A stretch of DNA of 64,000 bases from Actinomycetota bacterium (GTDB lineage Bacteria; Actinomycetota; Thermoleophilia; RBG-16-64-13): assembly GCA_016278725.1 (NCBI GenBank), contig JADQBG010000008.1, positions 1,680-65,679 of the forward strand, read 5' to 3'. Numbering within the stretch: position 1 is the first letter of the stretch; each line of letters opens with the position of its first letter. The position numbers and the translations under genes were made by a program. The notes below the pieces were generated by a model. It saw nothing but the letters and a program-made list of their open reading frames with translations. It was not told the DNA's origin and ran no database searches. Shown here one piece after another: positions 10,612 through 24,870 of the stretch.

Positions 10612-11223
10612 ATGAGTGGGAATAGAAAAAGTCACAAAGAAAGAGTATTGGAGCTTGCGCGAAATAGGGGAATACTCCGCCCTTTAGACCTCGACGATAT
10701 TGGAGTTCCCCGCCGTTACCTCTCTGCCCTTCGCGATGAGGGTCTTCTTGAGCAGCCAGCGCGCGGACTCTATATCCCAGTCGACGCTGATGTCTCCGAA
10801 AACATCAGCCTGGCACAGGTCAGCAAGCTGATTCCTCAGGGTGTCGTCTGCCTCCTTTCTGCTCTCGCCTTCCACGGCCTGACCACACAATTGCCGTTCC
10901 GCGTGTGGATCGCCGTCTCGCCTAACCAGCGGAAGCCAGCTGCCGGGTATTTGCCCGTTCGTGTGGTTCACCTTTCCGGTCCTGCCCTGGAAGAGGGGGT
11001 CGAGCGCCATACTATAGATGGAGTTTCTGTCCCGATCTTCGGTCCCGCCAAGACGGTTGCAGACTGTTTCAAGCATCGGAACAAAGTAGGGAAGGATGTC
11101 GCGCTCGAGGCCTTAAATGACTGTTGGACCCAGGGAATGTGCAACATGGACGACCTCGTCCACTTCGCCGAAGTGGACAGAGTGAAGAACGTGATGATGC
11201 CGTATTTTGAGACTCTGAGGTGA
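10612..11223 (+). CDS. abiEi: Type IV TA antitoxin AbiEi
   Basis: N-terminal wHTH (LEQPARGLY), VVCLLSALAFHGLTTQLP, PAKTVADCFKHRNKVG. Confidence 0.93.
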   Translation: MSGNRKSHKERVLELARNRGILRPLDLDDIGVPRRYLSALRDEGLLEQPARGLYIPVDADVSENISLAQVSKLIPQGVVCLLSALAFHGLTTQLPFRVWIAVSPNQRKPAAGYLPVRVVHLSGPALEEGVERHTIDGVSVPIFGPAKTVADCFKHRNKVGKDVALEALNDCWTQGMCNMDDLVHFAEVDRVKNVMMPYFETLR

Positions 11224-12137
11224 TCCCGCCCGTGGACCTTCCGGCGTCGGTTAGGGGGAAGTTGACCCAACTCGCGAGGCAAGAGGGATCGGTCGTCGAG
11301 GAAGTCTTCACGCGATACGCGCGCGAACGATTTCTCTACCGGCTCGCAGCTTCGCCTTATGCGGATCGCTTCATACTTAAGGGCGCAGTTCTCTTCTACG
11401 TGTGGAGCGATCGGCCTCACCGCGCGACTAGAGACATAGACTTTGCGGGCTATGGAGAGTTCGGCCTCGAAATGGCTCAGAGTCTGTTCCGGGATATTTG
11501 CACGGTGACGGTGGAGCCGGACGGCCTTCGATTTGACCCCGACAGCGTACGAGTCGAAGAGATTCGCGAGGACGTAGACTACCGCGGTGTCCGTGCTAGG
11601 TTTCTCGCCTTCTTGGGTAAGGCGCGGCTGAGCTTGCAGGTCGATGTGGGTGTAGGAGATGCAGTAACACCGGCCCCGGTTCAGATCTGCTATCCAACCC
11701 TGATTCCGGACTTTGGGCCCCCCGAACTTCGCGCCTACCCCCGCGAAACTGTGGTGGCGGAGAAGCTGCATGCAATTGTGAAACTCGGGCTCCCCAACAG
11801 CAGGATGAAGGACTACTACGATCTCCACGTCTTGGCGCAAGAGTTCAGTTTCTCTGGCGTCGCACTTGCTGATGCTGTCAGGGCCACTTTCGCACGTAGA
11901 AAGACGCCCCTGCCGGCCGATTTACCCCTGGGTCTGAGCGCGACGTTCGCAAGTAACCGGGAAAAGCAGCGCCAGTGGGCGGCATTTCTGGAGCGGGGCG
12001 GGTTGGCGCCGGACGTGGAACTGTCGTTGTCCGATGTCGTATCAGCGATACGATTGTTTTTGAGTCCACTGTTATCGTCTATCGCCGACGGTCACCCCTG
12101 GGATCTTAACTGGTCTCCTCGCGGACCATGGTCATAG
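11220..12137 (+). CDS. abiEii: Type IV TA toxin AbiEii (nucleotidyltransferase)
   Basis: FILKGAVL, HRATRDIDF, ETVVAEKLHA, SRMKDYYDL; 4-nt overlap with abiEi. Confidence 0.94.
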   Translation: MIPPVDLPASVRGKLTQLARQEGSVVEEVFTRYARERFLYRLAASPYADRFILKGAVLFYVWSDRPHRATRDIDFAGYGEFGLEMAQSLFRDICTVTVEPDGLRFDPDSVRVEEIREDVDYRGVRARFLAFLGKARLSLQVDVGVGDAVTPAPVQICYPTLIPDFGPPELRAYPRETVVAEKLHAIVKLGLPNSRMKDYYDLHVLAQEFSFSGVALADAVRATFARRKTPLPADLPLGLSATFASNREKQRQWAAFLERGGLAPDVELSLSDVVSAIRLFLSPLLSSIADGHPWDLNWSPRGPWS

Positions 12138-12885
12138 CGTCGTTCTTCTCCCACCCCTCCAAGGAGCACGGCTTCCTCGTGGCGAAGACCTTCTTCGAGC
12201 CGGAGTCGGTCTTCCGCATCGCCAAGGTGGGGGTGCTCAAGCACCAGGTGGCGGTGGATCGACCGTTGGGTGGAGACCTGCCGGCGGAAGGGGAGCCGGA
12301 TGCGGGGCGCGCCGACCCCGAGAAGCGCCTGATTGCGCCCAGTGTGCCCGTGGCTCCAGGTTCGGACGTGGAACGGGCGGGTGACGAACTGCTCGCCGAA
12401 CTCCTGGGCGAGGGCGAACTCGAGCTGGGCGCAGTGCTCCACCACCCCCACGTGCCCGTGCGCCTGCGCACCCGTGAACTCCTCACCAAGCACACCGCCG
12501 TGCTCGGCATGACCGGGGCGGGCAAGTCGAACGCGGTCAAGGTGCTGCTGCGCAACCTGCTCCGGTTGGAAGAGTTCCAGGATCTGCGCGTGGCGGTGAT
12601 CGACACGCATGGGGAGTACGCGGCGGCTGCGGAGGCGCTGGCCGGCGAGCGGGGCTGGACCGATCTGGCCGTCGAGGTGGGCCGCAGCCTCATGGAGGAG
12701 GGCGAGTTCAAGGAGGAGGCGCTGAAGAAGGTGCTGCGGCTGGGGCGCAAGGACAGCGCGCTCTTTGCGCAGCTACAGGAGCTCGCCGACACGCTGAGCG
12801 ACGACGACGATCTCCCCGAGTTCTGCCGGGCTTTGCGCGACGCTGCCCAGGACGAGGGGGACGAGGAATCGGCTGAGGCGCCATT
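12128..12885 (+). pseudogene. Internal fragment of a HerA/DUF87-like ATPase, in frame with the downstream yefM
   Basis: KHTAVLGMTGAGKSNAVKVL (Walker A) and VAVIDTHGEY; no Walker B or C-terminal half; the right boundary is approximate. Confidence 0.75.
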
Positions 12886-12922
12886 GCATATAAGGACGGG
12901 GGAGCGTCTTCACACGAATACC

Positions 12923-13156
12923 ATGAGCACGACAGAGGCGAGCAACAAGCTCGCTCAGCTCGTGGACCAAGTCCAGGAATCCCACGAACCGGTGCGGATC
13001 ACCTCCGAGCACGGCGATGCGGTTCTGATCAGCGCAAACCAATGGCGGGCGGTACAAGAAACACTGCATCTGCTCTCGATACGCGGAATGCGCGAGTCGA
13101 TAGCTGAGGGCATCGCTATGCCCCCGGACGGACTGGAGGACAAGCTCGACTGGTGA
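12923..13156 (+). CDS. yefM: Phd/YefM antitoxin, orphan (no YoeB downstream)
   Basis: TEASNKLAQLVDQVQESHEPVRIT...AVLISANQWRAVQETLHLLSIRGMRESI...LDW. Confidence 0.85.
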   Translation: MSTTEASNKLAQLVDQVQESHEPVRITSEHGDAVLISANQWRAVQETLHLLSIRGMRESIAEGIAMPPDGLEDKLDW

Positions 13157-13298
13157 GAAGGCGCCTGGAGCCGCCGGTTAGCGGACCGCCACCACCTCCG
13201 CTGCGAATTGGAGCAGAGCCAGGCGCGGTTGGTCTGATGCGCAGGAAGGTGTAGGATACGACTAATTGATGGGTTAATCGATCGATGGCGGTACCGAC

Positions 13299-13598
13299 CT
13301 GAAGAAACTGACTGTCAGCGCAACCGAAGCAAGAGTCCACTTTGGCGATCTTCTCCAGCGCGTCGCCGAAGGAGCCGTCGTTCTGGTAGAGCGGGGCGGC
13401 GAGCCCCGAGCCGTTGTCCTGTCGGTCGAGGAGTACGAGCGGATGCAGGTCTCCGCCGGAAGCGTTGTCTGGCGGGAAAGGGTCGAGCGGGCGCGGTCGG
13501 CAGTCAAGCAAGATCTCGGGGGGCGGCCGCCGCAGCCTCCGGCCGAGGTGATCAGGGAAGGCCGGGAAGAGCGTGATCGTGACCTGGACCTGCCTTGA
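13299..13598 (+). CDS. vapB: Phd/YefM-family antitoxin with no ATG/GTG start (possible CTG start)
   Basis: Not in the ORF track. LKKLTVSATEARVHFGDLLQRV...PRAVVLSVEEYERM...EVIREGREERDRDLDLP; in-frame TAA at 13275; overlaps the vapC start. Confidence 0.8.
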   Translation: MKKLTVSATEARVHFGDLLQRVAEGAVVLVERGGEPRAVVLSVEEYERMQVSAGSVVWRERVERARSAVKQDLGGRPPQPPAEVIREGREERDRDLDLP

Positions 13599-13995
13599 CG
13601 CGAGCTTCGTCCTGCGGCTCTTCTTCGGCCCCGGAGACGACGAAGCGTGGGAGGAATTCAACACCGCGTTAGGGAAGGGTGGACGCATGGTCGCTCCTTC
13701 CCTCTTGCCCTACGAGGTCTGCAACGCGATCCACCGTTACCACCGTTCCCAGCAGCTGAGCCGGGTCTCGGCGGGCCTCGTCCCTTCGGCTGTGGAGGAA
13801 CTGCCCCTGCTGCTCGAGGAGGACCGCATGCTGCGGGCACGGGCTCTGGAGATCGCGGCCCAGCTTGAGATGCCCGCCGCCTACGATGCCCACTACCTGG
13901 CCGTCGCCGAGAGGTATGACGCCGAACTCTGGACTGCCGATCGCGCGCTGGCGCGGCTCGGACGAGCGGGCGTTGCGCGGGTCCGCCTCTTCTAG
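13573..13995 (+). CDS. vapC: VapC-family PIN toxin
   Basis: CLDASFVL, LLPYEVCNAI, AYDAHYLAVAE, LWTADRAL. Confidence 0.92.
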   Translation: MIVTWTCLDASFVLRLFFGPGDDEAWEEFNTALGKGGRMVAPSLLPYEVCNAIHRYHRSQQLSRVSAGLVPSAVEELPLLLEEDRMLRARALEIAAQLEMPAAYDAHYLAVAERYDAELWTADRALARLGRAGVARVRLF

Positions 13996-14045
13996 GCCGT
14001 CGGTAGGATCATCCTAGCCACGAGGCTCCGCCCATTCCGCTCTCC

Positions 14046-14453
14046 TCACGGCAGCAGCTCCTCCGGCCGCCGCACCACCAAGAGCCCGTCGATGTCATCG
14101 AAGTGGGCATCGTGGGTGACCAGTGCGCTTGCGTGCTGCAGGGCGCTCGCCGCCAGCCACAGGTCGTTGGTCGGGATGGGGCGCTCCTTGGCGCGGAGCT
14201 GTCTATAGATGACGGCGTAGAAAGAGGCGGTCTCGGCGGTAACGGCAACGATCGAGACCCGCGGTGAGTCGAGGAAGGCGGAGAGCTCTTCGCGGTTTGC
14301 CGGCTCGCGGCTGCCCAGGGCAAAACCTGCCAGCAATTCACCCAGGACGATGGTGCTTAGCGAGACCTGCTCGGCGAGCTGAATGATTTCGAGGGTGGCC
14401 GGATCGCCGCCCTTGAAGGCGACGTAGGCGTTAGTATCCAGCAGGACGCGCAT
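14046..14453 (-). CDS. vapC: VapC-family PIN toxin
   Basis: LLDTNAY, VLGELLAG, IPTNDLWLAASA, LVTHDAHF. Confidence 0.94.
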   Translation of the reverse strand: MRVLLDTNAYVAFKGGDPATLEIIQLAEQVSLSTIVLGELLAGFALGSREPANREELSAFLDSPRVSIVAVTAETASFYAVIYRQLRAKERPIPTNDLWLAASALQHASALVTHDAHFDDIDGLLVVRRPEELLP

Positions 14454-14461
14454 CTGAGTCG

Positions 14462-14734
14462 TCAGGAGCCCGAGGTGCGCCAGAGCGCCTCGTCGATCTG
14501 CTCGAACTCGGCCGTGTTGCGCTCGAATTCCGCGACCTCTGCATCCGCCCAGGAACCGGCCAGGTGGTCGAGGTCATGCCTTTTCGGTCGGCGGTCCCGC
14601 CCAGGGGAGAGACCGAGCTCTTGTCGTAGGAGGTCGAGCACCAGACGGTTCACGCTCAGTCCCCGCCGACGGGCCTCGTCTTTGAGGGCCGCATCCAACT
14701 GGTCGTCAACGCCTCGAACAGAAATTGCCGCCAT
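14462..14734 (-). CDS. FitA/Arc-like RHH antitoxin
   Basis: MAAISVRGVDDQLDAALKDEARRRGLSVNRLV...HDLDHLAGSW; upstream of vapC. Confidence 0.88.
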   Translation of the reverse strand: MAAISVRGVDDQLDAALKDEARRRGLSVNRLVLDLLRQELGLSPGRDRRPKRHDLDHLAGSWADAEVAEFERNTAEFEQIDEALWRTSGS

Positions 14735-14736
14735 GA

Positions 14737-14776
14737 TAGCATCCCTTGCTAGCGCTTAATCTATTAGATGATAGCA
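14737..14776. promoter_or_regulatory. Operator of the FitA-like/vapC pair
   Basis: IR TAGCA-N5-TGCTA (14737-14751) next to the start codon; ATGATAGCA repeated at 14733-14741 and 14768-14776. Confidence 0.5.
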
Positions 14777-15009
14777 GACGCCCGCAGTTCGCGGATCACT
14801 TCGTGGGCCGGCGTCTTCGCCTGAGGGAGCTGCTCGCGCAGGGCCTTTCGGCTGGGGAAATCGCTTCGCGCGGCTGAATGGGCAGTCGTCTGGGTTAGCC
14901 GAGCCACCGGAACTCCGCGACGGGTGATGACGATTTCCTCACCGGCCTCGACCGCGTCGAGCAGACCGGCCAGCTCCGCCCGGGCTTCCCGCACGCTCAA
15001 TTCCCGCAT
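14764..15009 (-). CDS. Phd/YefM antitoxin, orphan
   Basis: MRELSVREARAELAGLLDAVEAGEEIVITRRGVPVARL; RBS GAGGAGGGGAG; no cognate toxin follows. Confidence 0.85.
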   Translation of the reverse strand: MRELSVREARAELAGLLDAVEAGEEIVITRRGVPVARLTQTTAHSAARSDFPSRKALREQLPQAKTPAHEVIRELRASAII

Positions 15010-15069
15010 CTCCCCTCCTCTTGGTACACATAGGGCATATGCAGGATCGCAGGTGCTCCGGATGTGGAC

Positions 15070-15564
15070 CTACTGCGAGGAGGACGCCTCGGCTCGCTGT
15101 TCGACAGCAATCGAGCCGCCGACCGCAGCGGCAGAAGCCAGCGTCGCCCAAAGTAGTCCTTTGCGCTCCGAGATCAGCCGACCATCGAGGGACATGAGGC
15201 CCGGCCCGGAGTAGGCCAACTCGAAAAGGGAGGCGAGCAGCACCACGTTGTACTCGTAGCCTCCCTCGGTCGCCCACAGTCCGTGCTGGGCGTGAACCGT
15301 CCGCCCCCCGGTGAGCACGACCGCGCCCAAGGAGGCCGCCGCCAGTGGGGTCGCCAACCCGAGGGTGAGGAGGGCGCCTCCGCCGACCTCGGCAGCGCCT
15401 GCCGCCATCGCCGCCTGCCTGCCCGGACGCAGGCCCAGTGAGTCGAAGAACTCACCGGTTCCCTGCAGACCGTGTCCGCCGAAAAGCCCGGCCAGCTTCT
15501 GCAGACCGTGACCAATCATCAGAACGCCGACGACCAAACGCAATACCAAGCGGCCGAATCCCAT
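15070..15564 (-). CDS. DoxX-family membrane protein
   Basis: LRLVVGVLMIGHGLQKL...FGGHGL, GGYEYNVVL; start re-set to ATG 15564 after RBS GGAAGGAG. Confidence 0.9.
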   Translation of the reverse strand: MGFGRLVLRLVVGVLMIGHGLQKLAGLFGGHGLQGTGEFFDSLGLRPGRQAAMAAGAAEVGGGALLTLGLATPLAAASLGAVVLTGGRTVHAQHGLWATEGGYEYNVVLLASLFELAYSGPGLMSLDGRLISERKGLLWATLASAAAVGGSIAVEQRAEASSSQ

Positions 15565-15604
15565 GGAAACTCCTTCCATCGCATACAAGTACTGAACACT
15601 TCCC

Positions 15605-15654
15605 CACAGGAAGCGCTGGGGACACTCCCTCACAGGAAGCGCCGGCGACACTCC
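15605..15654. repeat. Two 24-nt direct repeats (period 26) in the divergent promoter region
   Basis: CACAGGAAGCGCTGGGGACACTCC / CACAGGAAGCGCCGGCGACACTCC, 22/24 identical. Confidence 0.8.
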
Positions 15655-15837
15655 TCGCTCCGCCTGGGCCTGCCCGCTGGTTGGCCGACCACTTCCGGAA
15701 CTGGACTATCTGGCGTAGTTCCGCTTGACTGCTCGCCGCCGACTGCCGACACTGGGTGTAGCGCTTTCCTTCGCCACCGGCGCGGCGGTCTCTGTCTGGT
15801 GGCGGCTACGTGGCAACATTCATCAGGGGGAGGTCCG

Positions 15838-17163
15838 ATGGAAAAGCCCAGTCTGGACCGGGAAGAGCACGCCAGGGTCGTCTACCTTTCGGGGCCGCTC
15901 AGCGGCTGTAATCGGGAGCAGCGGCACAACTGGCGGAACGCGGTTCAGAACCTGAGCCCGCATTTCGAGTACATCGATCCCACCGGGTGGGGCGAAAGCT
16001 ACGACTTCTCCCGCCAACTGAAGGCTTTGGACGACGCCGACATTGTCGTGGCCAACATGTGGAAGGTGTCGGTGGGCACGACCATGGACATCTGGAACGC
16101 CCGTTACCGGGGCAAGCCCATCGTGCTGGTCGATCCCAACCACCTGCGCAATCCGATTCTAGAGGATCTGGTGCGTCCGGTGGAGCCCACGACTTCGCTG
16201 GAAGAGGCCTGCCGGCGTTTGGACGAGTTGGCCAATCGCCCCAATCCCATGCGCGTGCTGAAGAAGGACGGCCGGTTGGTGAACTTCGAGTTCGCCAAGC
16301 TCAGGCGCTCTCTGGAGTTCGTGTGCGCTGAGGCCCACGTCAACGACATCAATCTACCCCAGCAGCTGGCCGCGCTGGCGGTGGACCGTCTGCGCGACTG
16401 GCCGGTGGAAGGCGTGGTGTCCACCGATCAGATCCGCGAGGCCACCATTGCTTCGCTGGACCAGGTGGGGCGCAACCGCATCAACCAGAAGGACGTTCGC
16501 GTGCGGGTCGACGCTATCCGCGACGCGGTCAATCGCCGGGAGGAGCGCAAGGAATCGGCGCAGTTGCTGGCCGATGCTCAGAGCGAGAAGGAGGGATTGG
16601 TTGCCCTGATCGATCGTCAGGCCGAAGAGCTCAAACATCTGCGGGCGGAGAAGGCGCTGCGCGATGAGCAGCCCGAGCGGGACGAAGCCCCCGACTATCA
16701 GCCCAAGACCGTGGTCGAGGCGCTCGAGCGTGCGGCGGAGCAGTTCGACGATTCGCTGCAGGTTCACCCCAAGGCCTGGCGGTCTGCGCGGAAGGCCAAC
16801 ACCCATCAGCCGCTGCGCGTACTCCTGGCGCTCGAGATCCTGGGGAAGCGGGCCCGGGAGCGCATGGGCGAGTTGCAGGCCGGCGGGGGCGGCGGTCAGG
16901 CGAAGAGCCAGGCCGACTTCTTCGAGGGGGAGCGGCTCAAGGTGGGCGGCTGGCTGCACTACGCGAACGGTGAGGGCGACGCCACGGTCGGGGAGTACGG
17001 CCACGAGCGGGAGGTGACCGTGGGGGGCGAGAAGTACCTGGCCGACAAGCACCTGAGCGTGGGCGACCAGAACTTTCGCATCCACTTTGCCGAAATGAAC
17101 GACGGGCGCATCGTCGTCGCCCACTGCGGCCGGCACCTGAGCACCCACACCTTCGGAACTTGA
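15838..17163 (+). CDS. 441-aa multidomain protein: NDT-like + ATP-cone + coiled coil + putative RelE-like C-terminal domain
   Basis: VYLSGP...IDP...DADIVVA...SVGTTMDIWNARYRGKPIVLV (NDT fold); MRVLKKDGRLVNFEFAKLRRSL...VVSTDQIREA (ATP cone); RIHF...IVVAHCGRHL end. Start re-set to ATG 15838 after GGGGGAGGT. Confidence 0.75.
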   Translation: MEKPSLDREEHARVVYLSGPLSGCNREQRHNWRNAVQNLSPHFEYIDPTGWGESYDFSRQLKALDDADIVVANMWKVSVGTTMDIWNARYRGKPIVLVDPNHLRNPILEDLVRPVEPTTSLEEACRRLDELANRPNPMRVLKKDGRLVNFEFAKLRRSLEFVCAEAHVNDINLPQQLAALAVDRLRDWPVEGVVSTDQIREATIASLDQVGRNRINQKDVRVRVDAIRDAVNRREERKESAQLLADAQSEKEGLVALIDRQAEELKHLRAEKALRDEQPERDEAPDYQPKTVVEALERAAEQFDDSLQVHPKAWRSARKANTHQPLRVLLALEILGKRARERMGELQAGGGGGQAKSQADFFEGERLKVGGWLHYANGEGDATVGEYGHEREVTVGGEKYLADKHLSVGDQNFRIHFAEMNDGRIVVAHCGRHLSTHTFGT

Positions 17164-17178
17164 GGTTGGAGCCTGCGC

Positions 17179-17685
17179 TTGGCACCTGAGCCCACGATCG
17201 AACCCGGCTGGTTCCACCACGCTTCGGGCATCCACGGGGTCTCGCACGCGAGGCGGGTGCTGACCCACGCCCGCGCCATCGCAGAGCAGGTGGAGCTGAC
17301 GCCCTTCGAGCGGGAGGCGGTGCTCCAGGCGGCGGCCTGGCACGACATCGGCCGCACCCACGACGGCCGCGACCGGACGCACGGACGGAAGAGCGTGACC
17401 AAGGTCATGGACCTGGAGCTGCACCAGGGGCGCGAGCGCGAACTGCTGGACCTGGCCTTCTTCGCCATGGAGTATCACGCTATGTGGGACCAGGTGGGGG
17501 AGCGCCGCGGGTTGCTCCGCGCGGACTCCGAGGTGGCGCTGCGCGTCCTCTGGGTGCTCAAGGACGCCGACGGGCTCGACCGGGTGCGCCTCGGCCCCCG
17601 GGGTCTGGATCCGGGGCAGCTGCGCTTCGAGTGCTCGCGGGGGATGGTGGAGCGGGCCTGGGAGCTCTACCGGGAACTGCCCTAA
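17179..17685 (+). CDS. HD-domain phosphohydrolase
   Basis: HGVSHARRV, WHDIGR, HG..S, EYH, KDADGLDRVR; TTG start 15 nt after the previous stop. Confidence 0.88.
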   Translation: MAPEPTIEPGWFHHASGIHGVSHARRVLTHARAIAEQVELTPFEREAVLQAAAWHDIGRTHDGRDRTHGRKSVTKVMDLELHQGRERELLDLAFFAMEYHAMWDQVGERRGLLRADSEVALRVLWVLKDADGLDRVRLGPRGLDPGQLRFECSRGMVERAWELYRELP

Positions 17686-17759
17686 CCGTTTACTATGACG
17701 CGTTGCGTTATGGGCGGCTCGCCGCTAGAGTTGGGCTGGCGGCAACGCAGCGATAGAGG

Positions 17760-18059
17760 ATGGAGCCGATGCGGGGGAGATCCCCAACACCTCATCCGGG
17801 CCAGGTGCTCCTCGAGGAGTACCTGCGGCCGCGGGGTCTTAGCCAGAACCGTCTGGCCCGCAGCCTGGGCGTGCCTCCGCGCCGGGTCAACGAGATCGTC
17901 CTGGGCAAGCGGCGAATCACCGCCGACACGGCGCTCCGCCTGGCGAGTTACTTCGAAAACAGCCCCGTTTACTGGCTCGGGTTGCAGGACTGCTTCGACC
18001 TCGAACAGGCGAGGCTCAGTTCCGACGAACTCGGCGGACGGGAGAGCGCGCCGGCCTGA
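17760..18059 (+). CDS. higA: HigA-family antitoxin (XRE HTH), no higB upstream
   Basis: HPGQVLLEEYLRPRGLSQNRLARSLGVPPRRVNEIVLGKRRITADTALRLASYF. Confidence 0.93.
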   Translation: MEPMRGRSPTPHPGQVLLEEYLRPRGLSQNRLARSLGVPPRRVNEIVLGKRRITADTALRLASYFENSPVYWLGLQDCFDLEQARLSSDELGGRESAPA

Positions 18060-18095
18060 ACAGCCGAAGCCGGCCGGACAAGCCTGGCCCCCCAA

Positions 18096-18356
18096 TTGCA
18101 GAACCAACGAAGCGAGCTGCTGGCGATCGCCGAGCGCTACGGCGCCCGAGACGTGCGGGTGTTTGGCTCGGTGGCCCGAGGAGAGGACACGGCCGAGTCG
18201 GACGTCGACCTGCTGGTCCGCTTTGAGAAGGGGGCGACCTTGCTCGATCAGGCGGGCTTGAGTGCGGAGCTCGAACAGCTGTTGGACGTGGTGAGTGAGT
18301 CGGGCCTCAAGCCGCGCATCCGGGAACGCGTCCTGGCGGAGGCCCGTCCGCTTTGA
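18096..18356 (+). CDS. mntA: MntA-type minimal nucleotidyltransferase antitoxin
   Basis: YGARDVRVFGSVARGEDTAESDVDLLV (GS-X10-DXD); TTG start, N-terminus slightly short. Confidence 0.9.
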   Translation: MQNQRSELLAIAERYGARDVRVFGSVARGEDTAESDVDLLVRFEKGATLLDQAGLSAELEQLLDVVSESGLKPRIRERVLAEARPL

Positions 18357-18682
18357 GGGGTGACGACGAGCGCCTGCGCGACATTCTCGAGGCGATCGAG
18401 GCCATCGAGCGCCACCTGAGCCTGGGGGAGGAGAGATTTCGAGGGGACGAACTCCTCCAGGTTTGGGCCTTGCATCATTTGCAGCTTATCGGCGAGGCGG
18501 CCGCCGGCCTCTCGGAGGCCGCGCAAAGCGAGCTGTCGGAGGTCCCCTGGGCGGCGGTCGTCGGCATGCGCAAGATCCTTGTCCACGAGTACTTCGGAAT
18601 GGACCTCGACCGGGTATGGGCGACCGTGGAGCGGGACCTGCCGGAGCTCAAACAGGTGCTGAGCCGGCACCTGGAGGACTGA
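18353..18682 (+). CDS. hepT: HepT-type (DUF86) HEPN RNase toxin
   Basis: LQLIGEAA, VPW..VVGMRKILVHEYFGMD (RX4HXY). Confidence 0.92.
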   Translation: MRGDDERLRDILEAIEAIERHLSLGEERFRGDELLQVWALHHLQLIGEAAAGLSEAAQSELSEVPWAAVVGMRKILVHEYFGMDLDRVWATVERDLPELKQVLSRHLED

Positions 18683-19119
18683 TGGGTTCGCCCGGTCGTT
18701 TCCAAATGCAAGGCGGCGCAGCGGGGGGCGATCCGACCAGCTGTACTTTCTGCGCGATGCGGGACTCCCCCGACCTGCTCGCCGAGAACTCCCTGGCCTT
18801 CGCCCTGCCGGACGCCTTCCCGGTCTCGCCCGGCCACGCCCTGATCTTGCCCCGCCGCCACGTGGCCGACTACTTCGATCTCACCGCGGAGGAGAAGGCG
18901 GCCCTCTGGGAGCTGGTCGACCGGGTGCGGGAGCAAATGCTGGGAGGCGGAGGACCCGCCGGCTTCAACATCGGCGTCAACGTGGGCGCGGCCGCCGGGC
19001 AGACGGTTTTCCATGTGCACGTGCACCTGATTCCGCGCTACGCTGGGGATCGGGACGACCCGCGGGGCGGGGTACGCTGGGTGCTTCCCGATCGTGCCCG
19101 CTACTGGGAGGGAGACTAG
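18682..19119 (+). CDS. HIT-family nucleotide hydrolase
   Basis: CTFC, FPVSPGHALILPRRH, GQTVFHVHVHLIPRY (HxHxH); the ATG overlaps the hepT stop (TGATG). Confidence 0.93.
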   Translation: MGSPGRFQMQGGAAGGDPTSCTFCAMRDSPDLLAENSLAFALPDAFPVSPGHALILPRRHVADYFDLTAEEKAALWELVDRVREQMLGGGGPAGFNIGVNVGAAAGQTVFHVHVHLIPRYAGDRDDPRGGVRWVLPDRARYWEGD

Positions 19120-20289
19120 TTGGCGCAAGACTCGGGAGAGGACCGGCTGCAGCCAGGGGATCCTGGCCACCCTCGCGCCCGCGCCGGCCAAGGGCGGGGC
19201 GACGACGCCATCGCGTTCGGCGAGAAGCTGCTCACCCTGCTGGATGCCGGCTCCTTCACCGCCACCTACAAATACGGGGTCATCCTGGCGCTGCTCGACC
19301 ACTGTCTGGAATATGCCGACCGCAGCGGCGCTCCGCCCTCTTCTTTGACCACCCGCCAGCTTGCCCAGAAGACCATCGAACTCTACTGGCCGCAGACACT
19401 GCCTTTCGGCCTCGCTGAGGAAGGAGCGCTTCTGCGGCAGAGCAGCTCGGGTCAGGCCCAGATCGTTTCGCGCATCGTGCACTTCCGTGACGCCGCGGCC
19501 CCCGATCCCCTGGCCACGCTTCACCGCACTCGTCTGGCTTCGCCCAAGGCCTTCGTCAGGCTGGTCGACTTCGTCGAATGGAAGCTGATCGAGATGCCGC
19601 TCCCCCGCCTGCAGCAGCTGGGCCGCTTCTATGAGCCCTTCATCTATCAGATCGGCTGGGACGCGAACATCACGCGGAGCCGGGCGGGCGGCCCCGACTT
19701 CGACAATCGCCTGCTGCTCCTGCCCGGGGCGGGAGAGCACCTGGTGCGCCTGGCCGGCCTGATCCGGCCTTTGGTCCAGCGGGAGTGGGCGGCGATGGTG
19801 GCCCGGATGAACCGGGGCCTGGTGGAGGACTCCCAACTCGAGGATTTCCTCTTTGGAGCGCGCCGCGCGGGCGCCGGCCGGCTGGCCTTCCCCTTGCGCG
19901 AACTGCAGGACAACCGCTGCTTTTACTGCGGCGAGGTGTTGAAGGTCACGGCGGCGGTGGATCACTTCCTGCCCTGGGCCCGTTATGCCGATGACGGCAT
20001 CGAGAACCTGGTGGCGGCGCACGCGGGCTGCAACGGTTCCAAGCGGGACTTCCTCGCGGCCGAGGAGCACGTCGGCCGCTGGGCGGGCCGCTTCGCCCCT
20101 GAATCTGCGGAGAGCCGACAGCTTGCCGAGATCGCGGAACTCGCCCGCTGGCAACGCGACCCGGAGCGCACCCTTTCCGTGGCTCGCGCGGTGTACCTCA
20201 ATCTCTCGCCCGGGGTCAAGCTCTGGGCGGGAATCGACCTTTTCGAGGACGCCGACCCGCGCGGACTCGCGCGCGCGCTGGCGGGCTAG
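19120..20289 (+). CDS. HNH endonuclease with large N-terminal domain
   Basis: N-terminal TATYKYGVILAL; C-terminal CFYC...VDHFLPW...NLVAAHAGCNGSK; TTG directly after the HIT stop. Confidence 0.88.
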   Translation: MAQDSGEDRLQPGDPGHPRARAGQGRGDDAIAFGEKLLTLLDAGSFTATYKYGVILALLDHCLEYADRSGAPPSSLTTRQLAQKTIELYWPQTLPFGLAEEGALLRQSSSGQAQIVSRIVHFRDAAAPDPLATLHRTRLASPKAFVRLVDFVEWKLIEMPLPRLQQLGRFYEPFIYQIGWDANITRSRAGGPDFDNRLLLLPGAGEHLVRLAGLIRPLVQREWAAMVARMNRGLVEDSQLEDFLFGARRAGAGRLAFPLRELQDNRCFYCGEVLKVTAAVDHFLPWARYADDGIENLVAAHAGCNGSKRDFLAAEEHVGRWAGRFAPESAESRQLAEIAELARWQRDPERTLSVARAVYLNLSPGVKLWAGIDLFEDADPRGLARALAG

Positions 20290-20385
20290 GCCAGAGAACA
20301 GGAGCCCTGATGAGTCTCTTTGCACATCGGTGTTTGCAGCCCTGCCGGTAGCGCCCAGGCGGTATGATCAATGTACTACCTAAGT

Positions 20386-20395
20386 TGTACGTACA
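20386..20395. promoter_or_regulatory. Palindromic operator upstream of the RHH antitoxin
   Basis: Perfect palindrome TGTACGTACA with a second TGTAC at 20372, just before RBS GAGGT. Confidence 0.5.
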
Positions 20396-20407
20396 GAGGT
20401 GCGCTGC

Positions 20408-20677
20408 ATGGCTAGACTTGATGCCAGAATGGAAATCCGGCTGGACAGCGAAACTTTGGACCGGCTCGAGGTGACCGCGAAGCAGCGGGGTATCAGTGTG
20501 GCCGCGCTGGCCCGGGAAGCCATCAGCCGGTTGTTGGAGGAGGGGGGAATCCGGCGGGAGATGACCGATCTGGAAGAGGCGCTTGGCCTGGAAACGCCCG
20601 TTCCAATGGACCCTCAGGAACTCGCGCGTGAGCTCGAGAAAAGATACGAGCTCCGCTCGGGAGCGAGCCCATATTAG
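20408..20677 (+). CDS. vapB: CopG/RHH antitoxin
   Basis: RMEIRLDSETLDRLEVTAKQRGISVAALAREAI. Confidence 0.85.
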   Translation: MARLDARMEIRLDSETLDRLEVTAKQRGISVAALAREAISRLLEEGGIRREMTDLEEALGLETPVPMDPQELARELEKRYELRSGASPY

Positions 20678-20698
20678 CGGCAGGATAAAGAGCGGTCG

Positions 20699-21121
20699 GT
20701 GTACGTCGATTCCGTAGTCTTTATGTATGCCTTCGGGGCGGAGAGTCCGTGGCGAGAGGCGTCGGCCTCGTTCTTGCGGGCCGCGGCGGCACGCGAACTG
20801 GCAGCCGTGACCAGCGTCGAGACTCTTCAGGAGATCATTCACCGCTACCGAAGCATCCGCCGCTTTGACGAGCTTGAAGCCGCGTACCGAGGCGTGGTGG
20901 TCTCAGTACGTTCGATCTTTCCGGTCACTAAATCGGACGTGGATGAGGCGCTCGAACTCAGTCAGATACTGTTGGATGTGCGAGTGTCCGCCCGAGACCT
21001 GCTTCATGCTGCGGTTGCGCGACGGCATGGAATCTCCACCGTGGTCACTTACGATCAAGACTTCGAGACGATCCCAGGGATTCGCGCCGTTACACCTGCT
21101 TCGGTTCTCGGCTTGCGGTAG
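20699..21121 (+). CDS. vapC: VapC-family PIN toxin
   Basis: YVDSVVFMY, ETLQEI, SARDLLHAAVA, VVTYDQDF. Confidence 0.93.
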   Translation: MYVDSVVFMYAFGAESPWREASASFLRAAAARELAAVTSVETLQEIIHRYRSIRRFDELEAAYRGVVVSVRSIFPVTKSDVDEALELSQILLDVRVSARDLLHAAVARRHGISTVVTYDQDFETIPGIRAVTPASVLGLR

Positions 21122-21129
21122 TTTGGTCT

Positions 21130-21876
21130 CTAGGCCTCCACCTCTAACTCCCCCATCCGCTGGGGCTTGGGCTCGAACTCGACCACCAGGGCTTGTCCAT
21201 GGAAGCCGCTGACTTCGACATGCCCGCGAAAAGCGCCCCGCCGGAGTAGTTGGACTGCCTGCTCGGCGCTTTCGACCTCCCGATAGAACTGGTTGTAGCT
21301 GGTTCCCAGCGTCCAGCCCTGATGGGAATCCGAGCCGGCGATCAGCATTGGCGGGTCGGGCAGGAGGTCGTGGCGGATGGAGTCGAGCGCTTGCACGTGG
21401 TCGCGAACGCGCTCGGGCTTTGCCATGAAGGAGAGCCGCGCGGCGTTCACCTCGAGAAAGTCGAGGGGCAGTTCGACGAGCCAACCGGGTAGAGGGAGCT
21501 CCACCTCGAGCGGGTGCGCCCAGATCAAGAGGATGCGGGGATCGTGCAGGTAGGCGCGCAGTTCGTCGTTGTCGGGGTCGGCCGTGCGGCCCAAGCGCCA
21601 GAGTAGCTCGTGCAGGCCGGCAAAGGCCTCGGGCTCGGCGGTCAGCAGCAACAGATCGACCCAGGCGGCCCCCAGAGTGACCTCGAGGGCGAACAGCCCA
21701 CGGGGGTGCAGCCGGGGATCCTGGCCGTGACGCTCATAGAACTCGAGCGACTGGTGATCGGCCACCAGGGGAAAGTAGTTGGGGTTGGCTCCCGCCCACT
21801 GCAGGAACTCCTCGTCGGTGAGACGCGAGCAGGACGAGGCCGTGGCGTGCACGTGTGGATCCAGGCGGGTGGGCAT
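21130..21876 (-). CDS. PHP-family metal-dependent phosphoesterase
   Basis: DPHVHA, ADH, LEV, WAHP, LEVN, AGSDSH metal ligands; 1-nt overlap with the XRE gene. Confidence 0.8.
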   Translation of the reverse strand: MPTRLDPHVHATASSCSRLTDEEFLQWAGANPNYFPLVADHQSLEFYERHGQDPRLHPRGLFALEVTLGAAWVDLLLLTAEPEAFAGLHELLWRLGRTADPDNDELRAYLHDPRILLIWAHPLEVELPLPGWLVELPLDFLEVNAARLSFMAKPERVRDHVQALDSIRHDLLPDPPMLIAGSDSHQGWTLGTSYNQFYREVESAEQAVQLLRRGAFRGHVEVSGFHGQALVVEFEPKPQRMGELEVEA

Positions 21877-22535
21877 CAGCGGGCCAACCTTCGGGCCAGA
21901 TCGAGCAGGCGGCGAACGTCCTCGACGGGCATCCGCCGCAGCAGCACGGCGAGCTCGGCCAGGAGCGAGTCGAACGAGTCGCTCTCATCACTCATTGCCT
22001 CCGCTGACCCCGAGGGCTCGAAGTCCGCCTCTTGGCGCTGCCGCGCGAAACCGGGAGAGCGCTTCACCCAATCGGGAACCTGATCTGACGAACTCTCGAA
22101 CGGCGCGCTCATCCTGGATTCGTCGGGCAGTCGCCCGGCCGCCCGGTCCTCCAGACGCATGCGCTCCCAGTAGTGCCTCAGCGAGGGGGAGATGTCATCG
22201 GCGTACTTCAGCCACTCCGGCGCGAAATCTTCGTCAAAAAAGCCGCCGGCGCCGGAGCGCTCGGCCTCGATGCGTTGCGCAGCACCGCGTAGCAACTGAC
22301 TGGGCGAGACCTCGAGGGACTCGGCGATCTCCCGCAGCTTGGTGGAGGAGGGGGGCTTGCGGCCCTTCTCTATGTCGGAGAGGTAGGAGTAGGAGATGCC
22401 GCTGCGCTCCGCCAGTTCGGTGCGCTTGAGCCCGCGCTCGGTGCGCATCACTTCGATCGTCCGACCCAGCGCCTCGCTGACCGTCTGCTCGGCGGCCTGT
22501 CTGCGGTGGCTCCGCGATTCGGGCTCCTCTGTCAT
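21876..22535 (-). CDS. XRE-family HTH regulator with long C-terminal extension
   Basis: LKRTELAERSGISYSYLSDIEKGRKPPSSTKLREIAESLEV. Confidence 0.9.
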   Translation of the reverse strand: MTEEPESRSHRRQAAEQTVSEALGRTIEVMRTERGLKRTELAERSGISYSYLSDIEKGRKPPSSTKLREIAESLEVSPSQLLRGAAQRIEAERSGAGGFFDEDFAPEWLKYADDISPSLRHYWERMRLEDRAAGRLPDESRMSAPFESSSDQVPDWVKRSPGFARQRQEADFEPSGSAEAMSDESDSFDSLLAELAVLLRRMPVEDVRRLLDLARRLAR

Positions 22536-22594
22536 CTTCCGACCTCCCGGGGGTGCACGGCTCTAGAGGGAAATTACGTATCATGGCGGTAAGG

Positions 22595-22613
22595 TTATCA
22601 CTTATTGTGGTAA
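22595..22613. promoter_or_regulatory. Candidate XRE operator in the divergent promoter
   Basis: Imperfect IR TTATCAC-N5-GTGGTAA in an AT-rich spacer. Confidence 0.4.
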
Positions 22614-22725
22614 AGTAAACGCTGCAAGCGGTAGCGGCGGTTCTGTCCGCTCCTACTTCTATCATTTAAATCGGTGAGCGCGAGTCCGCGAGACCAGGCG
22701 CGAGCCACTACCAAAGGGGGTCGTC

Positions 22726-24003: not shown

Positions 24004-24149
24004 TGAACGCTGTGCGCAGTCTGCTGTACTTCATCGCCCGCCTCATGGGCGATGTCAGCGCGGTGCGCCGGGGGACGGTGGGCAAACGCCTTGGTCGCCG
24101 CGTCACGGGGCGGGCTGCGGGGAAGCTGCTGCGCAGCCTCTGGCGATAG
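24003..24149 (+). CDS. 48-aa basic small protein
   Basis: Not in the ORF track. MNAVRSLLYFIARLMGDVSAVRRGTVGKRLGRRVTGRAAGKLLRSLWR; TAATG overlap with vWA and RBS GGGAG. Confidence 0.75.
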   Translation: MNAVRSLLYFIARLMGDVSAVRRGTVGKRLGRRVTGRAAGKLLRSLWR

Positions 24150-24189
24150 GTTCTCGGGGGAAAGTACGTCGGTTGGGTAAGGTAAGAGC

Positions 24190-24870
24190 ATGACGTCCCA
24201 ACCGCACCCCCGCTCTGAGGCTAACCCCGCTCCGGGCCGTCCGCCCCTGCGGCTGTTCCTGATCCGGCACGGCGAAACCGAGTGGTCGCTCTCCGGCCAA
24301 CATACCGGCCGCACGGACATCGGCCTGACCGCAAACGGTGAGCGGGCGGCGCGGGAACTCGGGCGGCGGCTCCGGGGGATTTCGTTCACGCGCGTCGTGA
24401 CCAGTCCGCTGCTCCGCGCCCGGCGTACCTGCGAGTTGGCCCTGCCGGCCGCGGGTTTCGAAGTGGAACCCGACCTGGCGGAGTGGGACTACGGTGGCTA
24501 CGAGGGCCGAACATCGGCCGAAATTCTCGAGGAGCGCCCGGGCTGGAATCTCTTTCGCGACGGCGCTCCTGACGGGGAAGCGCCCGGCCAGGTGGGCGCC
24601 CGCGCCGACCGGCTTCTCGTCGGGCTCCGGGCGCTGCAGGGTAATGTTGCGCTGTTCTCCCACGGCCACTTCAGCCGCGTCCTCGCCGCCCGCTGGATCG
24701 GGCTCCCGGTGGCCCGGGCCCAGCACTTTCTGCTGGCCACGGCCTCTCTCAGCATTCTCGCCTATGAACACGAGCGCACTGACCGCCCGGTCATTGCCCT
24801 CTGGAACTCCCAGGCGGGCGAACCTCCGGTCTTGGCGACTCGAGGTCTGCGCGGAGGAGCGAGGCCCTGA
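24190..24870 (+). CDS. Histidine phosphatase (PGM family)
   Basis: LIRHGETEWS, TSPLLRARRT, EWDYG.YEG, FSHGH. Confidence 0.95.
   Translation: MTSQPHPRSEANPAPGRPPLRLFLIRHGETEWSLSGQHTGRTDIGLTANGERAARELGRRLRGISFTRVVTSPLLRARRTCELALPAAGFEVEPDLAEWDYGGYEGRTSAEILEERPGWNLFRDGAPDGEAPGQVGARADRLLVGLRALQGNVALFSHGHFSRVLAARWIGLPVARAQHFLLATASLSILAYEHERTDRPVIALWNSQAGEPPVLATRGLRGGARP

What the first reader, a model, noticed from the sequence alone, without database searches (positions are those of the whole stretch)
15838..17685. NDT-like + ATP-cone + coiled coil + RelE-like protein paired with an HD hydrolase: candidate nucleotide-sensing defence system
Seen: a 441-aa ORF with four segments. Residues ~13-130 carry an NDT-like motif set (YLSGP, IDP, DADIVVA, SVGTTMD, GKPIV). 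Residues ~138-212 carry an ATP-cone pattern (VLKKDGR.V.F...KL..SL...VSTDQIRE). Residues ~215-285 are a charged coiled coil. Residues ~290-441 end in RIHF...IVVAHCGRHL. An HD phosphohydrolase starts 15 nt downstream, and the pair sits inside a TA/defence island. Known: ATP cones bind ATP/dATP and switch oligomer state in ribonucleotide reductases and NrdR, and NDT-fold proteins act as abortive-infection effectors (e.g. the retron Ec86 effector). Inference: the cone could read phage-induced changes in (d)NTP pools and activate an N-glycosidase and/or an mRNase-like toxin, with the HD enzyme making or removing a nucleotide signal. The usual NDT nucleophile Glu appears as Asp (GTTMD), so the NDT domain may have altered chemistry or only bind ligand. 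I do not recognise this architecture from named systems. The RelE-like call is the weakest part.
Basis: partly seen in the sequence, partly recalled or inferred. Interest (0 to 1): 0.88.

Follow-up and report, generated by a model that had tools for sequence, protein, structure and literature searches.

The report
Nucleotide-sensing protein with RelE-like toxin tail
This gene encodes one protein whose front half looks like a double nucleotide sensor (a probably catalytically dead NDT-like pocket plus an ATP-cone) and whose back half is the RNase-type module of the tested anti-phage protein HEC-07, so it is probably a self-contained, nucleotide-gated toxin or defence protein; the neighbouring HD gene is only an occasional companion.

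Summary
The NDT/DNPH1 fold is supported by Foldseek. The ATP-cone passes Pfam's cut-off. A 60-residue helix fits a coiled coil. The C-terminal domain matches the PADLOC models NsnC (Menshen) and HEC-07, whose matching domains are published as RelE/BECR RNases.

An exhaustive HMM search shows an undescribed family. The N-terminal NDT-like + ATP-cone module is conserved. The C-termini are interchangeable: the RelE-like type seen here, two unknown types, and singletons. Members come from uncultured genomes (MAGs) of at least eight phylum-level groups. The NDT nucleophile position is Gly in 58 of 68 members, so this domain is probably a ligand binder.

No neighbour gene is conserved. The HD gene is adjacent in two divergent lineages. 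It is missing from the genome, or lies on another contig, in 8 of 10 related carriers.

My best reading (about 0.55) is a single-chain, autoinhibited RNase toxin gated by nucleotide binding, probably anti-phage. This is a new variant of the HEC-07 kind. None of it has been tested experimentally.

The parts
15826..15833 (+). Shine-Dalgarno-like GGGGGAGG, 4 nt before the ATG
   Evidence: Read directly from the sequence.
15838..17163 (+). 441-aa ORF (P0001): NDT-like + ATP-cone + coiled coil + RelE/BECR-like domain. This is the whole unit.
   Evidence: Translation. Full-length homologues. AlphaFold model with pLDDT 80.
15868..16242 (+). NDT/DNPH1-fold domain (residues 11-135). It lacks the canonical Glu nucleophile (D84 here, Gly in most relatives). 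Family-invariant residues are L17, G19, P20, C24, W32, R33, P48, S78 and G80.
   Evidence: Foldseek against PDB: NDT/DNPH1 hits with probability 1.0 and TMt 0.6-0.74. Pfam PF15891/PF14359/PF05014 below cut-off. Column counts.
16249..16458 (+). ATP-cone (residues 138-207). V140, K142, G145, F150, K154, L155 and T196/I199 are conserved across the family.
   Evidence: PF03477 at 31 bits against a cut-off of 25.8. Relatives score up to 39.7 bits. Column counts.
16486..16668 (+). Long charged helix (residues 217-277), probably a coiled-coil oligomerisation element.
   Evidence: A single helix in the AlphaFold model. It is the least conserved segment, at 21% mean identity. Relatives give weak coiled-coil family matches.
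16693..17160 (+). C-terminal helical + beta-sheet domain (residues 286-441). It is related to the effector modules of NsnC and HEC-07 and is a putative RelE/BECR-type RNase. Invariant residues are H405, G409, G431 and H433. Near-invariant residues are Y375, E379, E390, R391, R414 and R432.
   Evidence: PADLOC NsnC E 1e-11 and HEC-07 E 8e-9. Domain model with pLDDT 90 and pTM 0.86. Conservation. Foldseek is not significant, but its top rows are entries of HigBA and ParDE toxin-antitoxin complexes.
17179..17685 (+). 168-aa HD-domain phosphohydrolase. It is probably co-transcribed (15-nt gap) and is a facultative neighbour, not a core part.
   Evidence: PF01966 at 30.8 bits. Its distribution is independent of the target.

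Best explanation
The 441-aa gene encodes a stand-alone, single-polypeptide toxin or abortive-infection module.

- Effector: the C-terminal domain (residues 286-441) is a RelE/BECR-type RNase of the kind found in HEC-07 and in the Menshen effector NsnC. Its probable catalytic residues are H405, R414/R432 and H433.
- Sensor or regulator: the N-terminal half has two nucleotide-binding domains. The first is an NDT/DNPH1-fold pocket that has lost the catalytic glutamate and so probably only binds a (deoxy)nucleotide-like ligand. The second is an ATP-cone, which in ribonucleotide reductases and NrdR binds ATP/dATP and changes oligomeric state.
- Coupling: a 60-residue coiled coil links the two halves and probably makes the protein a dimer or higher oligomer.
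- Proposed mechanism: in the resting cell the RNase is held inactive by the nucleotide-bound N-terminal assembly. A change in the bound ligand, such as the ATP/dATP ratio or dNMPs or modified nucleotides that appear during phage infection, rearranges the oligomer. This releases the RNase, which then cleaves RNA and stops translation.
- No antitoxin is needed. The HD gene is an optional accessory that might degrade the ligand.

Shown here: the domain identities, the homology of the tail to HEC-07/NsnC, loss of the NDT nucleophile across the family, the modular family architecture, and the absence of a conserved partner gene. Inferred: ligand identity, autoinhibition, RNase activity and its target, and the anti-phage role.
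For: Domain evidence:
- The ATP-cone is above Pfam's cut-off and its K142/F150/K154 signature is conserved in 59-68 of 68 members.
- The NDT/DNPH1 fold is supported by Foldseek.
- Position 84 is Gly in 58 of 68 members, while L17, G19, P20, C24, W32, R33, P48, S78 and G80 are invariant.

Effector evidence:
- The tail matches four NsnC models and HEC-07, each at its C-terminal end.
- HEC-07 protected E. coli against phages as a single gene, and its C-terminus is described as RelE-like with a conserved His (bioRxiv 10.1101/2024.01.29.577857).
- H405 and H433 are invariant, and R414 and R432 nearly so, in 29 diverse tails.

Family evidence:
- The exhaustive search gave 95 clusters at E<1e-30. The NDT + cone module is joined to at least three unrelated tail types, and the same tail sits behind other N-termini. 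This is the domain-swapping pattern typical of conflict systems.
- The N-terminal domain is the best conserved part: 45% mean identity, against 31% for the tail.

Context evidence:
- No upstream or downstream gene is conserved across about 70 loci.
- The gene is present in 10 of 41 related genomes and in 9 of 30 genera.
- The window, L001, L002 and L004 lie in TA/RM/defence-type islands.
- Among 141 neighbours of family members there are PADLOC hits to PDC-S01, SoFic, PDC-S04, PDC-S24, DpdF, RmuC and HEC-07.
- No nucleotide-metabolism operon was seen among the 25 families listed.
Against: - There is no experimental evidence for this protein or any family member.
- Direct structural support for the RelE fold is weak. 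Foldseek of a confident domain model (pLDDT 90) gave no hit below E 0.17 in PDB and none in BFVD.
- Pfam RelE/ParE families do not match.
- Which NsnC tail family the matched PADLOC models represent was not verified.
- Many neighbours of family members are ordinary transporters and enzymes, and no control set was used to measure defence enrichment.
- The very strong conservation of the NDT-like pocket, including an invariant Cys, would also fit an enzyme.
- The target itself has V148 where most members have the cone's Glu.
- All members come from MAGs, so expression is unknown.
Confidence: 0.55

Rival explanations
1. This is a housekeeping or stress regulator, not immunity. An RNase gated by the nucleotide pool slows translation or promotes dormancy when ATP/dATP or salvage nucleotides change. 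It would be a third use of the ATP-cone, after RNR and NrdR, with no phage involved.
For: - The domain set fits pool sensing.
- Many neighbours are ordinary metabolic or transport genes.
- The most widespread tail type (B, 40 of 73 loci) has no defence-library match.
- Earlier notes of this scan describe ATP-cone-nuclease fusions that behave as core genes in Patescibacteria (unchecked here).
Against: - The gene is patchy: 10 of 41 relatives, and none outside one family.
- The tails are swapped.
- The copies in L004 and in L018/G024 read as frameshifted.
- The window's copy and several others lie in TA/RM islands.
- The tail is shared with a tested defence protein.
Confidence: 0.2
2. The roles are reversed. 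The highly conserved NDT-like domain is the effector, for example an N-glycosidase acting on NAD+ or nucleotides with non-canonical chemistry such as Cys24, as in the NDT effector of retron Ec86. The variable C-terminal domains would then be sensors or adaptors.
For: - The N-terminal domain is the most conserved part (45% identity).
- It has invariant Cys24, Trp32, Arg33, Ser78 and Gly80.
- Variable C-terminal sensors occur in other single-protein defences (my own knowledge).
- The target and a few relatives keep an acidic residue at position 84: D in 3 and E in 3 of 68.
Against: - The canonical nucleophile is Gly in 58 of 68 members.
- No retron-effector model in PADLOC matches.
- The type A tail carries invariant His and near-invariant Arg residues. 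It is homologous to domains that two papers assign as effectors.
Confidence: 0.12
3. This is an obligate two-gene system. The HD phosphohydrolase would make or remove the nucleotide signal, or act as an antitoxin, and would be needed for function.
For: - The gap is 15 nt in the window. The HD gene also follows the target directly in L004, and the gap is 12 nt in L078.
- The L078 target is only 37% identical and its HD 59% identical.
- The HD motifs are intact.
Against: - Five of 10 related carriers have no HD homologue in the genome, and 3 have it on another contig.
- None of the other type A loci (L001, L005, L007-L017, L019-L021, L024) has one in the stretch held, up to 8 kb each side.
- In the same-genus genome the HD gene is displaced by 2.3 kb and fused to a VWA remnant, while the target stays intact.
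- HD homologues form a much larger family and occur without the target.
Confidence: 0.08

Closest known systems
HEC-07 (Hma-embedded candidate 07; PADLOC PDLC04161; bioRxiv 10.1101/2024.01.29.577857)
   Same: Both are single-gene modules. The coiled-coil region plus the C-terminal RelE-like domain are homologous: target residues 221-437 match model positions 339-551 of 553 at E 8e-9. A conserved C-terminal His is present (H543 in HEC-07, H433 here). HEC-07 reduced plaquing of coliphages in E. coli.
   Different: The N-terminal two-thirds differ. HEC-07 has AdoMetDC-like and thioredoxin-like domains. The target has an NDT-like domain and an ATP-cone. The target itself is untested.
NsnC, the effector of the three-gene Menshen system (PB-BECR1 domain; PMC12065111)
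   Same: The C-terminal domain matches four PADLOC NsnC models at their C-terminal ends (best E 1e-11). The conserved His/Arg/His pattern fits the published H-R-H triad.
   Different: The target has no inactive-PIN N-terminal domain. No NsnA (ParB-DUF262) or NsnB (ABC ATPase/DUF3696) gene is nearby. The only DUF262 fragment in the genome is on another contig. In Menshen the effector is thought to be regulated by a separate ATPase; here regulation would be built into the protein.
ATP-cone regulators: class I/III ribonucleotide reductases and NrdR
   Same: The Pfam ATP-cone is above the cut-off, the Lys/Phe/Lys signature is conserved, and the model shows the beta-hairpin plus helices of the cone.
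   Different: The output domain is neither a reductase nor a zinc-ribbon DNA binder but a putative RNase. The gene is not in nrd operons. Nucleotide binding and oligomer switching are untested.
DNPH1/Rcl and nucleoside 2-deoxyribosyltransferases, and NDT-like effectors such as that of retron Ec86
   Same: The Rossmann-like fold is shared (Foldseek TMt 0.6-0.74). The Asp and Ser-x-Gly motifs are conserved at the positions aligned with Rcl/DNPH1 (D68, S78, G80).
   Different: The catalytic Glu is Asp here and Gly in 85% of the family. The Pfam NDT scores are below the cut-offs. No PADLOC retron-effector match was found, and the annotated neighbours include no reverse transcriptase.
Type II RelE/ParE toxin-antitoxin modules and fused multidomain BECR toxins (PMC11980606)
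   Same: The putative BECR-type RNase tail sits among many TA pairs. Multidomain BECR toxins are a recognised class.
   Different: There is no conserved adjacent antitoxin gene. No Pfam RelE/ParE family matches. An NDT + ATP-cone fusion is not mentioned in that survey (0 occurrences of 'cone' or 'deoxyribosyltransferase').

Membership tests
ATP-cone (PF03477) | Profile match above Pfam's gathering score | tested here: met
   31.0 bits against 25.8 for residues 138-207. Family members score up to 39.7 bits.
ATP-cone (PF03477) | Conserved nucleotide-contacting signature (V-x-K-[KR]-x-G ... F ... K-[IL]) and the beta-hairpin plus helices fold | tested here: met
   K142 in 59 of 68, F150 in 68 of 68, K154 in 62 of 68. 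Model elements are E139-141, E147-149, H152-165, H173-185 and H196-211. The mapping onto RNR contact residues is from my own knowledge.
ATP-cone (PF03477) | Binds ATP/dATP and changes oligomeric state | not testable with these tools
   This needs ITC or DSF, and SEC-MALS with and without nucleotides.
NDT / DNPH1 superfamily (PF05014, PF15891, PF14359) | Rossmann-like NDT fold | tested here: met
   Foldseek against PDB: at least 24 NDT, DNPH1 and Rcl chains among the top hits, with probability 1.0 and TMt 0.55-0.74.
NDT / DNPH1 superfamily (PF05014, PF15891, PF14359) | Profile match above the gathering score | tested here: not met
   PF15891 19.7 against 30, PF14359 15 against 22, PF05014 13 against 28.8. 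A few relatives pass PF14359, for example P0058 at 29.6.
NDT / DNPH1 superfamily (PF05014, PF15891, PF14359) | Catalytic Glu nucleophile (E93 of Rcl, E98 of Lactobacillus NDT) | tested here: not met
   D84 aligns with it. That column reads G58, D3, E3, S3, Q1 across 68 members.
RelE/ParE (BECR) RNase fold | Structural match to solved RelE/YoeB/YafQ/HigB/ParE toxins | tested here: inconclusive
   With the domain model (pLDDT 90), the top Foldseek rows are entries of the S. pneumoniae toxin-antitoxin module, ParDE and HigBA2 complexes, but the best E is 0.17 and TMt is at most 0.41. The model has a helix followed by a five-stranded sheet.
RelE/ParE (BECR) RNase fold | Match to a Pfam RelE/ParE-clan family | tested here: not met
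   No such family at E<=1. The profile search of PDB sequences found none. hhalign against YafQ and YoeB was not significant.
HEC-07 / NsnC-type C-terminal effector module | Profile match to the C-terminal module, with the conserved His/Arg residues | tested here: met
   PDLC03912 E 1e-11 (target 261-438 against 154-314 of 316). PDLC04161 E 8e-9 (target 221-437 against 339-551 of 553). H405 and H433 are invariant; R414 is present in 25 of 29 and R432 in 24 of 29.
HEC-07 system (whole protein) | AdoMetDC-like and thioredoxin-like N-terminal domains | tested here: not met
   The match covers only model positions 339-551. The target's N-terminus is NDT-like plus ATP-cone.
Menshen (NsnABC) | Adjacent NsnA (ParB-DUF262) and NsnB (ABC ATPase + DUF3696) genes | tested here: not met
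   Neighbours at 11220-26144 were annotated and none is DUF262 or an ABC ATPase. The one DUF262 fragment is on contig C3. The DUF3696 search was uninformative because its control failed.
Type II toxin-antitoxin pair | Conserved adjacent antitoxin gene | tested here: not met
   No upstream or downstream ORF is shared beyond close relatives across about 70 loci.
   The HD gene is adjacent in the window, L004 and L078 only. It is displaced in the same-genus genome. Eight of 10 related carriers have no HD homologue or have it on another contig.
Retron Ec86-type NDT effector | Specific similarity to the retron effector, with an adjacent reverse transcriptase and ncRNA | tested here: not met
   PADLOC returns only NsnC and HEC-07 for the target. 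The annotated neighbours include no RT. An ncRNA was not searched for.

The most novel reading that the evidence does not exclude
The NDT-like + ATP-cone + coiled-coil module defines an undescribed family of single-chain immune or toxin proteins, with at least 68 clusters at 50% identity from at least eight phylum-level groups. In these proteins an ATP-cone, so far known only as the allosteric switch of ribonucleotide reductases and NrdR, and a catalytically dead DNPH1-like pocket would together read infection-induced changes in nucleotide pools (ATP/dATP, dNMPs or modified dNMPs). They would then release interchangeable toxin domains. This would be a new sensing principle for abortive infection and a third functional class of ATP-cone proteins.
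Probability: 0.35. Interest if true: 0.8.

Novelty: new variant of a known kind. Interest (0 to 1): 0.62.

Why it matters
If the reading is right, this protein shows how a bacterial toxin can be kept silent and then fired by a small-molecule read-out of the nucleotide pool, with no antitoxin and no separate sensor protein. It would also extend the ATP-cone, a textbook allosteric module, into immunity or growth control. The family offers a natural set of swapped effector domains on one sensor scaffold, two of them of unknown fold, which is useful for finding new toxin domains. It could also serve as a compact ligand-gated RNase switch. Finally, it gives a testable hypothesis for how HEC-07-type single-gene defences are regulated: different N-terminal ligand-binding modules on the same RNase tail.

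Tried and rejected
- The word-indexed homologue search found only 6 close clusters, and the C-terminal region alone found nothing new. The exhaustive HMM search was needed to see the family.
- A sequence search of PDB found only marginal NDT hits with the whole protein and nothing relevant with the tail profile. The 'enhancer of rudimentary' hit at E 0.017 covers helices only and I judge it chance.
- Foldseek of the tail model against PDB and BFVD gave nothing significant.
The YoeB alignment did place the last two strands and the C-terminal His in the expected register.
- Pfam and PADLOC found nothing for the type B and type C tails. hhalign shows they are unrelated to the RelE-like tail and to each other.
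- I rejected the idea of a conserved antitoxin or partner after all-against-all comparison of flanking ORFs.
- I rejected HD as a core partner.
- I rejected the longer GTG start at 15472.
- The promoter and terminator scan gave nothing above chance.
- The own-genome search for DUF3696 was uninformative because its control failed.
- Literature searches that required ATP-cone together with deoxyribosyltransferase or defence-system terms returned no paper. Two broader OR-type searches listed no paper containing 'ATP-cone'.
- Defence enrichment among neighbours was only tallied, with no matched control.
Full report
**1. The observation**

Window 15838-17163 (+) is an open 441-codon frame. Its ATG lies 4 nt downstream of GGGGGAGG. 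The mechanical ORF list extends the frame to a GTG at 15472. That extension overlaps the divergent DoxX gene (15070-15651), and all homologues start near M1, so I take 15838 as the start. The downstream gene at 17179-17685 has a TTG start after a 15-nt gap and is an HD-domain protein: PF01966 at 30.8 bits against a cut-off of 22.

The neighbourhood is a TA-rich island. It holds AbiEii; a HerA fragment fused to Phd; PIN; PIN with a FitA-like RHH; a second Phd; DoxX; the target; HD; a HigA-like HTH; MNT-HepT; HIT; HNH; RHH-PIN; a PHP_C-domain protein; XRE; and VWA.

**2. Domains**

- ATP-cone. PF03477 matches residues 138-207 at 31 bits, above the cut-off of 25.8.
- NDT-like domain. The Pfam scores are below the cut-offs (PF15891 19.7 against 30). 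However, the AlphaFold model (7-sequence alignment, pLDDT 80) hits NDT, DNPH1 and Rcl structures in PDB, with Foldseek probability 1.0 and target-normalised TM 0.55-0.74. phmmer aligns S78-x-G80 and D84 with the Ser-x-Gly motif and the position of the catalytic Glu in Rcl.
- Coiled coil. Residues 217-277 form one uninterrupted helix.
- C-terminal domain. It has no Pfam match. It does match four PADLOC NsnC models (best E 1e-11, target residues 261-438 on model positions 154-314 of 316). It also matches HEC-07 (E 8e-9, residues 221-437 on positions 339-551 of 553).

A separate model of the tail, built from 29 diverse sequences, is confident (pLDDT 90, pTM 0.86). It shows a helical sub-domain followed by a helix and a five-stranded sheet. 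Foldseek of this model found nothing significant. The leading PDB rows are entries of an S. pneumoniae toxin-antitoxin module and of ParDE and HigBA2 complexes, but E is at least 0.17. BFVD gave nothing. In 29 tails, H405, G409, G431 and H433 are invariant, and Y375, E379, E390, R391, R414 and R432 are nearly so. So the RelE-like call rests on profile homology to two published effector modules plus a plausible catalytic pattern. It does not rest on a direct structural match.

**3. The family**

The word-indexed search saw only six clusters, all Thermoleophilia-type MAGs. The exhaustive profile search of 1.84 billion representatives found 2184 proteins at E<1e-3 and 95 at E<1e-30. I parsed the best 150 with per-domain HMMs and clustered the regions after the cone. 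This gave:
- 31 entries with the full architecture (type A; five are the query alignment's own rows);
- 25 clusters with NDT-like + cone and a different tail of about 160 aa (type B);
- 11 clusters with a third tail (type C);
- 14 singletons.

The tails of types B and C have no Pfam or PADLOC match, and hhalign shows them unrelated to the RelE-like tail. Conversely, the RelE-like tail occurs behind unrelated N-termini of 500-635 aa, as in HEC-07, and also alone.

Across 68 members the invariant residues are L17, G19, P20, C24, W32, R33, P48, S78, G80 and F150. The nucleophile column (D84) reads Gly in 58, Asp in 3, Glu in 3, Ser in 3 and Gln in 1. The cone keeps K142 (59 of 68), F150 (68 of 68) and K154 (62 of 68). 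Among type A proteins, mean pairwise identity is 45% for the NDT-like domain, 30% for the cone, 21% for the coiled coil and 31% for the tail.

A scan of one genome per species found 71 loci, all in MAGs. They come from Thermoleophilia/Gaiellales, Acidobacteriota, Gemmatimonadota, Nitrospirota, Planctomycetota, Armatimonadota, Gamma-, Alpha- and Deltaproteobacteria (several isolated from sponges) and Eisenbacteria. Type A is mostly actinobacterial, and type B is the most widespread.

**4. Context and the HD gene**

I compared all ORFs within 4 kb of the gene across about 70 loci, all against all. No gene family was shared beyond lineage-level synteny. Co-directional ORFs immediately upstream or downstream are not conserved either. 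There is therefore no conserved antitoxin or partner.

HD homologues in the fetched loci occur only in four places. One is the window, where HD is adjacent. L004 has a 92%-identical target with HD adjacent. L002/L003/L006 are the same-genus genome: there HD lies 2.3 kb downstream behind a histidine phosphatase and a permease, and is fused to a VWA remnant. L078 has a 37%-identical type A protein followed after 12 nt by an HD protein 59% identical to the window's.

Among 41 related genomes, the target is in 10. Of those 10 carriers, 5 have no HD homologue at E<=1e-8, 3 have it on another contig, one has the displaced fusion, and only the window's genome has it adjacent. HD homologues form a much larger family (155 clusters even by word search). 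They occur without the target, once next to ARPP-1 and Metallophos genes and once in a metabolic operon. The recurrence in L078 is worth noting. Even so, HD is at most a facultative accessory.

The neighbours of 141 family members are heterogeneous, with 103 Pfam families. The commonest are AAA_14/DUF4143 (4 members each), Fic (3) and ADP-ribosylglycohydrolase (2). No nrd or other nucleotide-metabolism gene appears among the 25 families listed. Some neighbours hit PADLOC models, including PDC-S01, SoFic, PDC-S04, PDC-S24, DpdF, RmuC, HEC-07 and PsyrT. I had no matched control, so I cannot claim enrichment.

**5. Mechanism**

The best-supported reading has five parts.
- The tail is the effector. 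It is homologous to assigned effectors, its His and Arg residues are conserved, and it is exchangeable.
- The NDT-like + cone half is the conserved sensor or regulator. It has two nucleotide-binding folds, the nucleophile is lost, and it is the most conserved part.
- The coiled coil gives oligomerisation.
- Regulation is intramolecular, because no partner gene is conserved.
- By analogy with RNR and NrdR, nucleotide binding to the cone would change the assembly and expose or activate the RNase. This step rests on my own knowledge of those systems.

The identity of the ligand and the trigger is inference. Candidates are the ATP/dATP ratio, dNMPs from host DNA breakdown, and modified dNMPs, since DNPH1 acts on 5-hydroxymethyl-dUMP. 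I hold three rivals at lower odds: a non-immune pool-responsive regulator, reversed roles with the NDT-like domain as the enzyme, and an obligate HD partnership.

**6. Comparison and novelty**

The closest known thing is HEC-07. It has the same tail and the same single-gene logic, but a different N-terminal module. NsnC shares the tail but works in a three-gene system that is absent here. The survey of multidomain RelE/ParE toxins does not mention a cone or NDT fusion. Literature searches that required ATP-cone together with deoxyribosyltransferase or defence-system terms returned no paper; two broader searches listed no paper containing 'ATP-cone'.

That agrees with my reading but is not independent evidence. 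I class this as a new variant of a known kind. The interest lies in the ATP-cone and dead-NDT sensor module and in the family-wide tail swapping. It does not lie in the HD pairing.

**7. Limits**

- Nothing here is experimental.
- The full-length model rests on 7 sequences.
- I did not verify which NsnC tail family the matched PADLOC models represent.
- Gene calling in the loci was a simple longest-ORF procedure.

Noticed in passing
window 16075-16115: A 97%-identical copy from another assembly (P0003) lacks residues 80-91 (GTTMDIWNARYR). This is a 36-nt in-frame deletion between GGGCA direct repeats, and it removes the core of the NDT-like pocket, including D84. It could be a population variant or an assembly artefact.
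   Followed up: partly
L002:11698-12645 (same-genus genome): The HD homologue (73% identical over residues 5-139) is fused in frame to a remnant of the VWA protein. It lies 2.3 kb downstream of the intact target, behind His_Phos_1 and an amino-acid permease. The island between HD and VWA seen in the window is missing there.
   Followed up: partly
L078:2621-4498 and L077:4001-7245: In L078, a type A family member only 37% identical to the target is followed after 12 nt by an HD gene 59% identical to the window's. L077 has the same HD / ARPP-1 / Metallophos neighbourhood but lacks the target. HD may belong to an ARPP-1/Metallophos context instead.
   Followed up: partly
window 18463-20289; L013:9389-10834 region; L074: The HIT-HNH gene pair of the window recurs next to family members in two Terriglobia MAGs (L013 and L074), on the opposite strand. 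This may be a mobile two-gene unit that shares islands with the family.
   Followed up: no
L032:3812-6679: A family member with a different tail is immediately followed by a 566-aa protein that carries the same RelE-like tail at residues 430-563 (HEC-07-like). So the two architectures sit side by side.
   Followed up: no
L004:8001-9325; L018:1663-3040 (and G024:C8:1747-3037): Two copies of the type A gene, in L004 and in L018/G024, are split by a frameshift before the tail. They are either pseudogenes or long-read assembly errors.
   Followed up: no
window 12128-13156: One open frame runs from a HerA/DUF87 fragment (PF01935, residues 98-168) into a complete Phd/YefM antitoxin (residues 265-331). 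It overlaps the end of abiEii.
   Followed up: no
P0052, P0074 and other type B proteins; P0039, P0046 and other type C proteins (not in the window): Two conserved C-terminal domains on the same NDT-like + ATP-cone scaffold have no Pfam or PADLOC match. Type B has the motifs ksH.tiWG, diPs.aR and kG..Q.Fqi. Type C has LCis..g..sf..af.R.Gl and Y..VLYA..gLrH. They are candidate new toxin or effector domains.
   Followed up: partly
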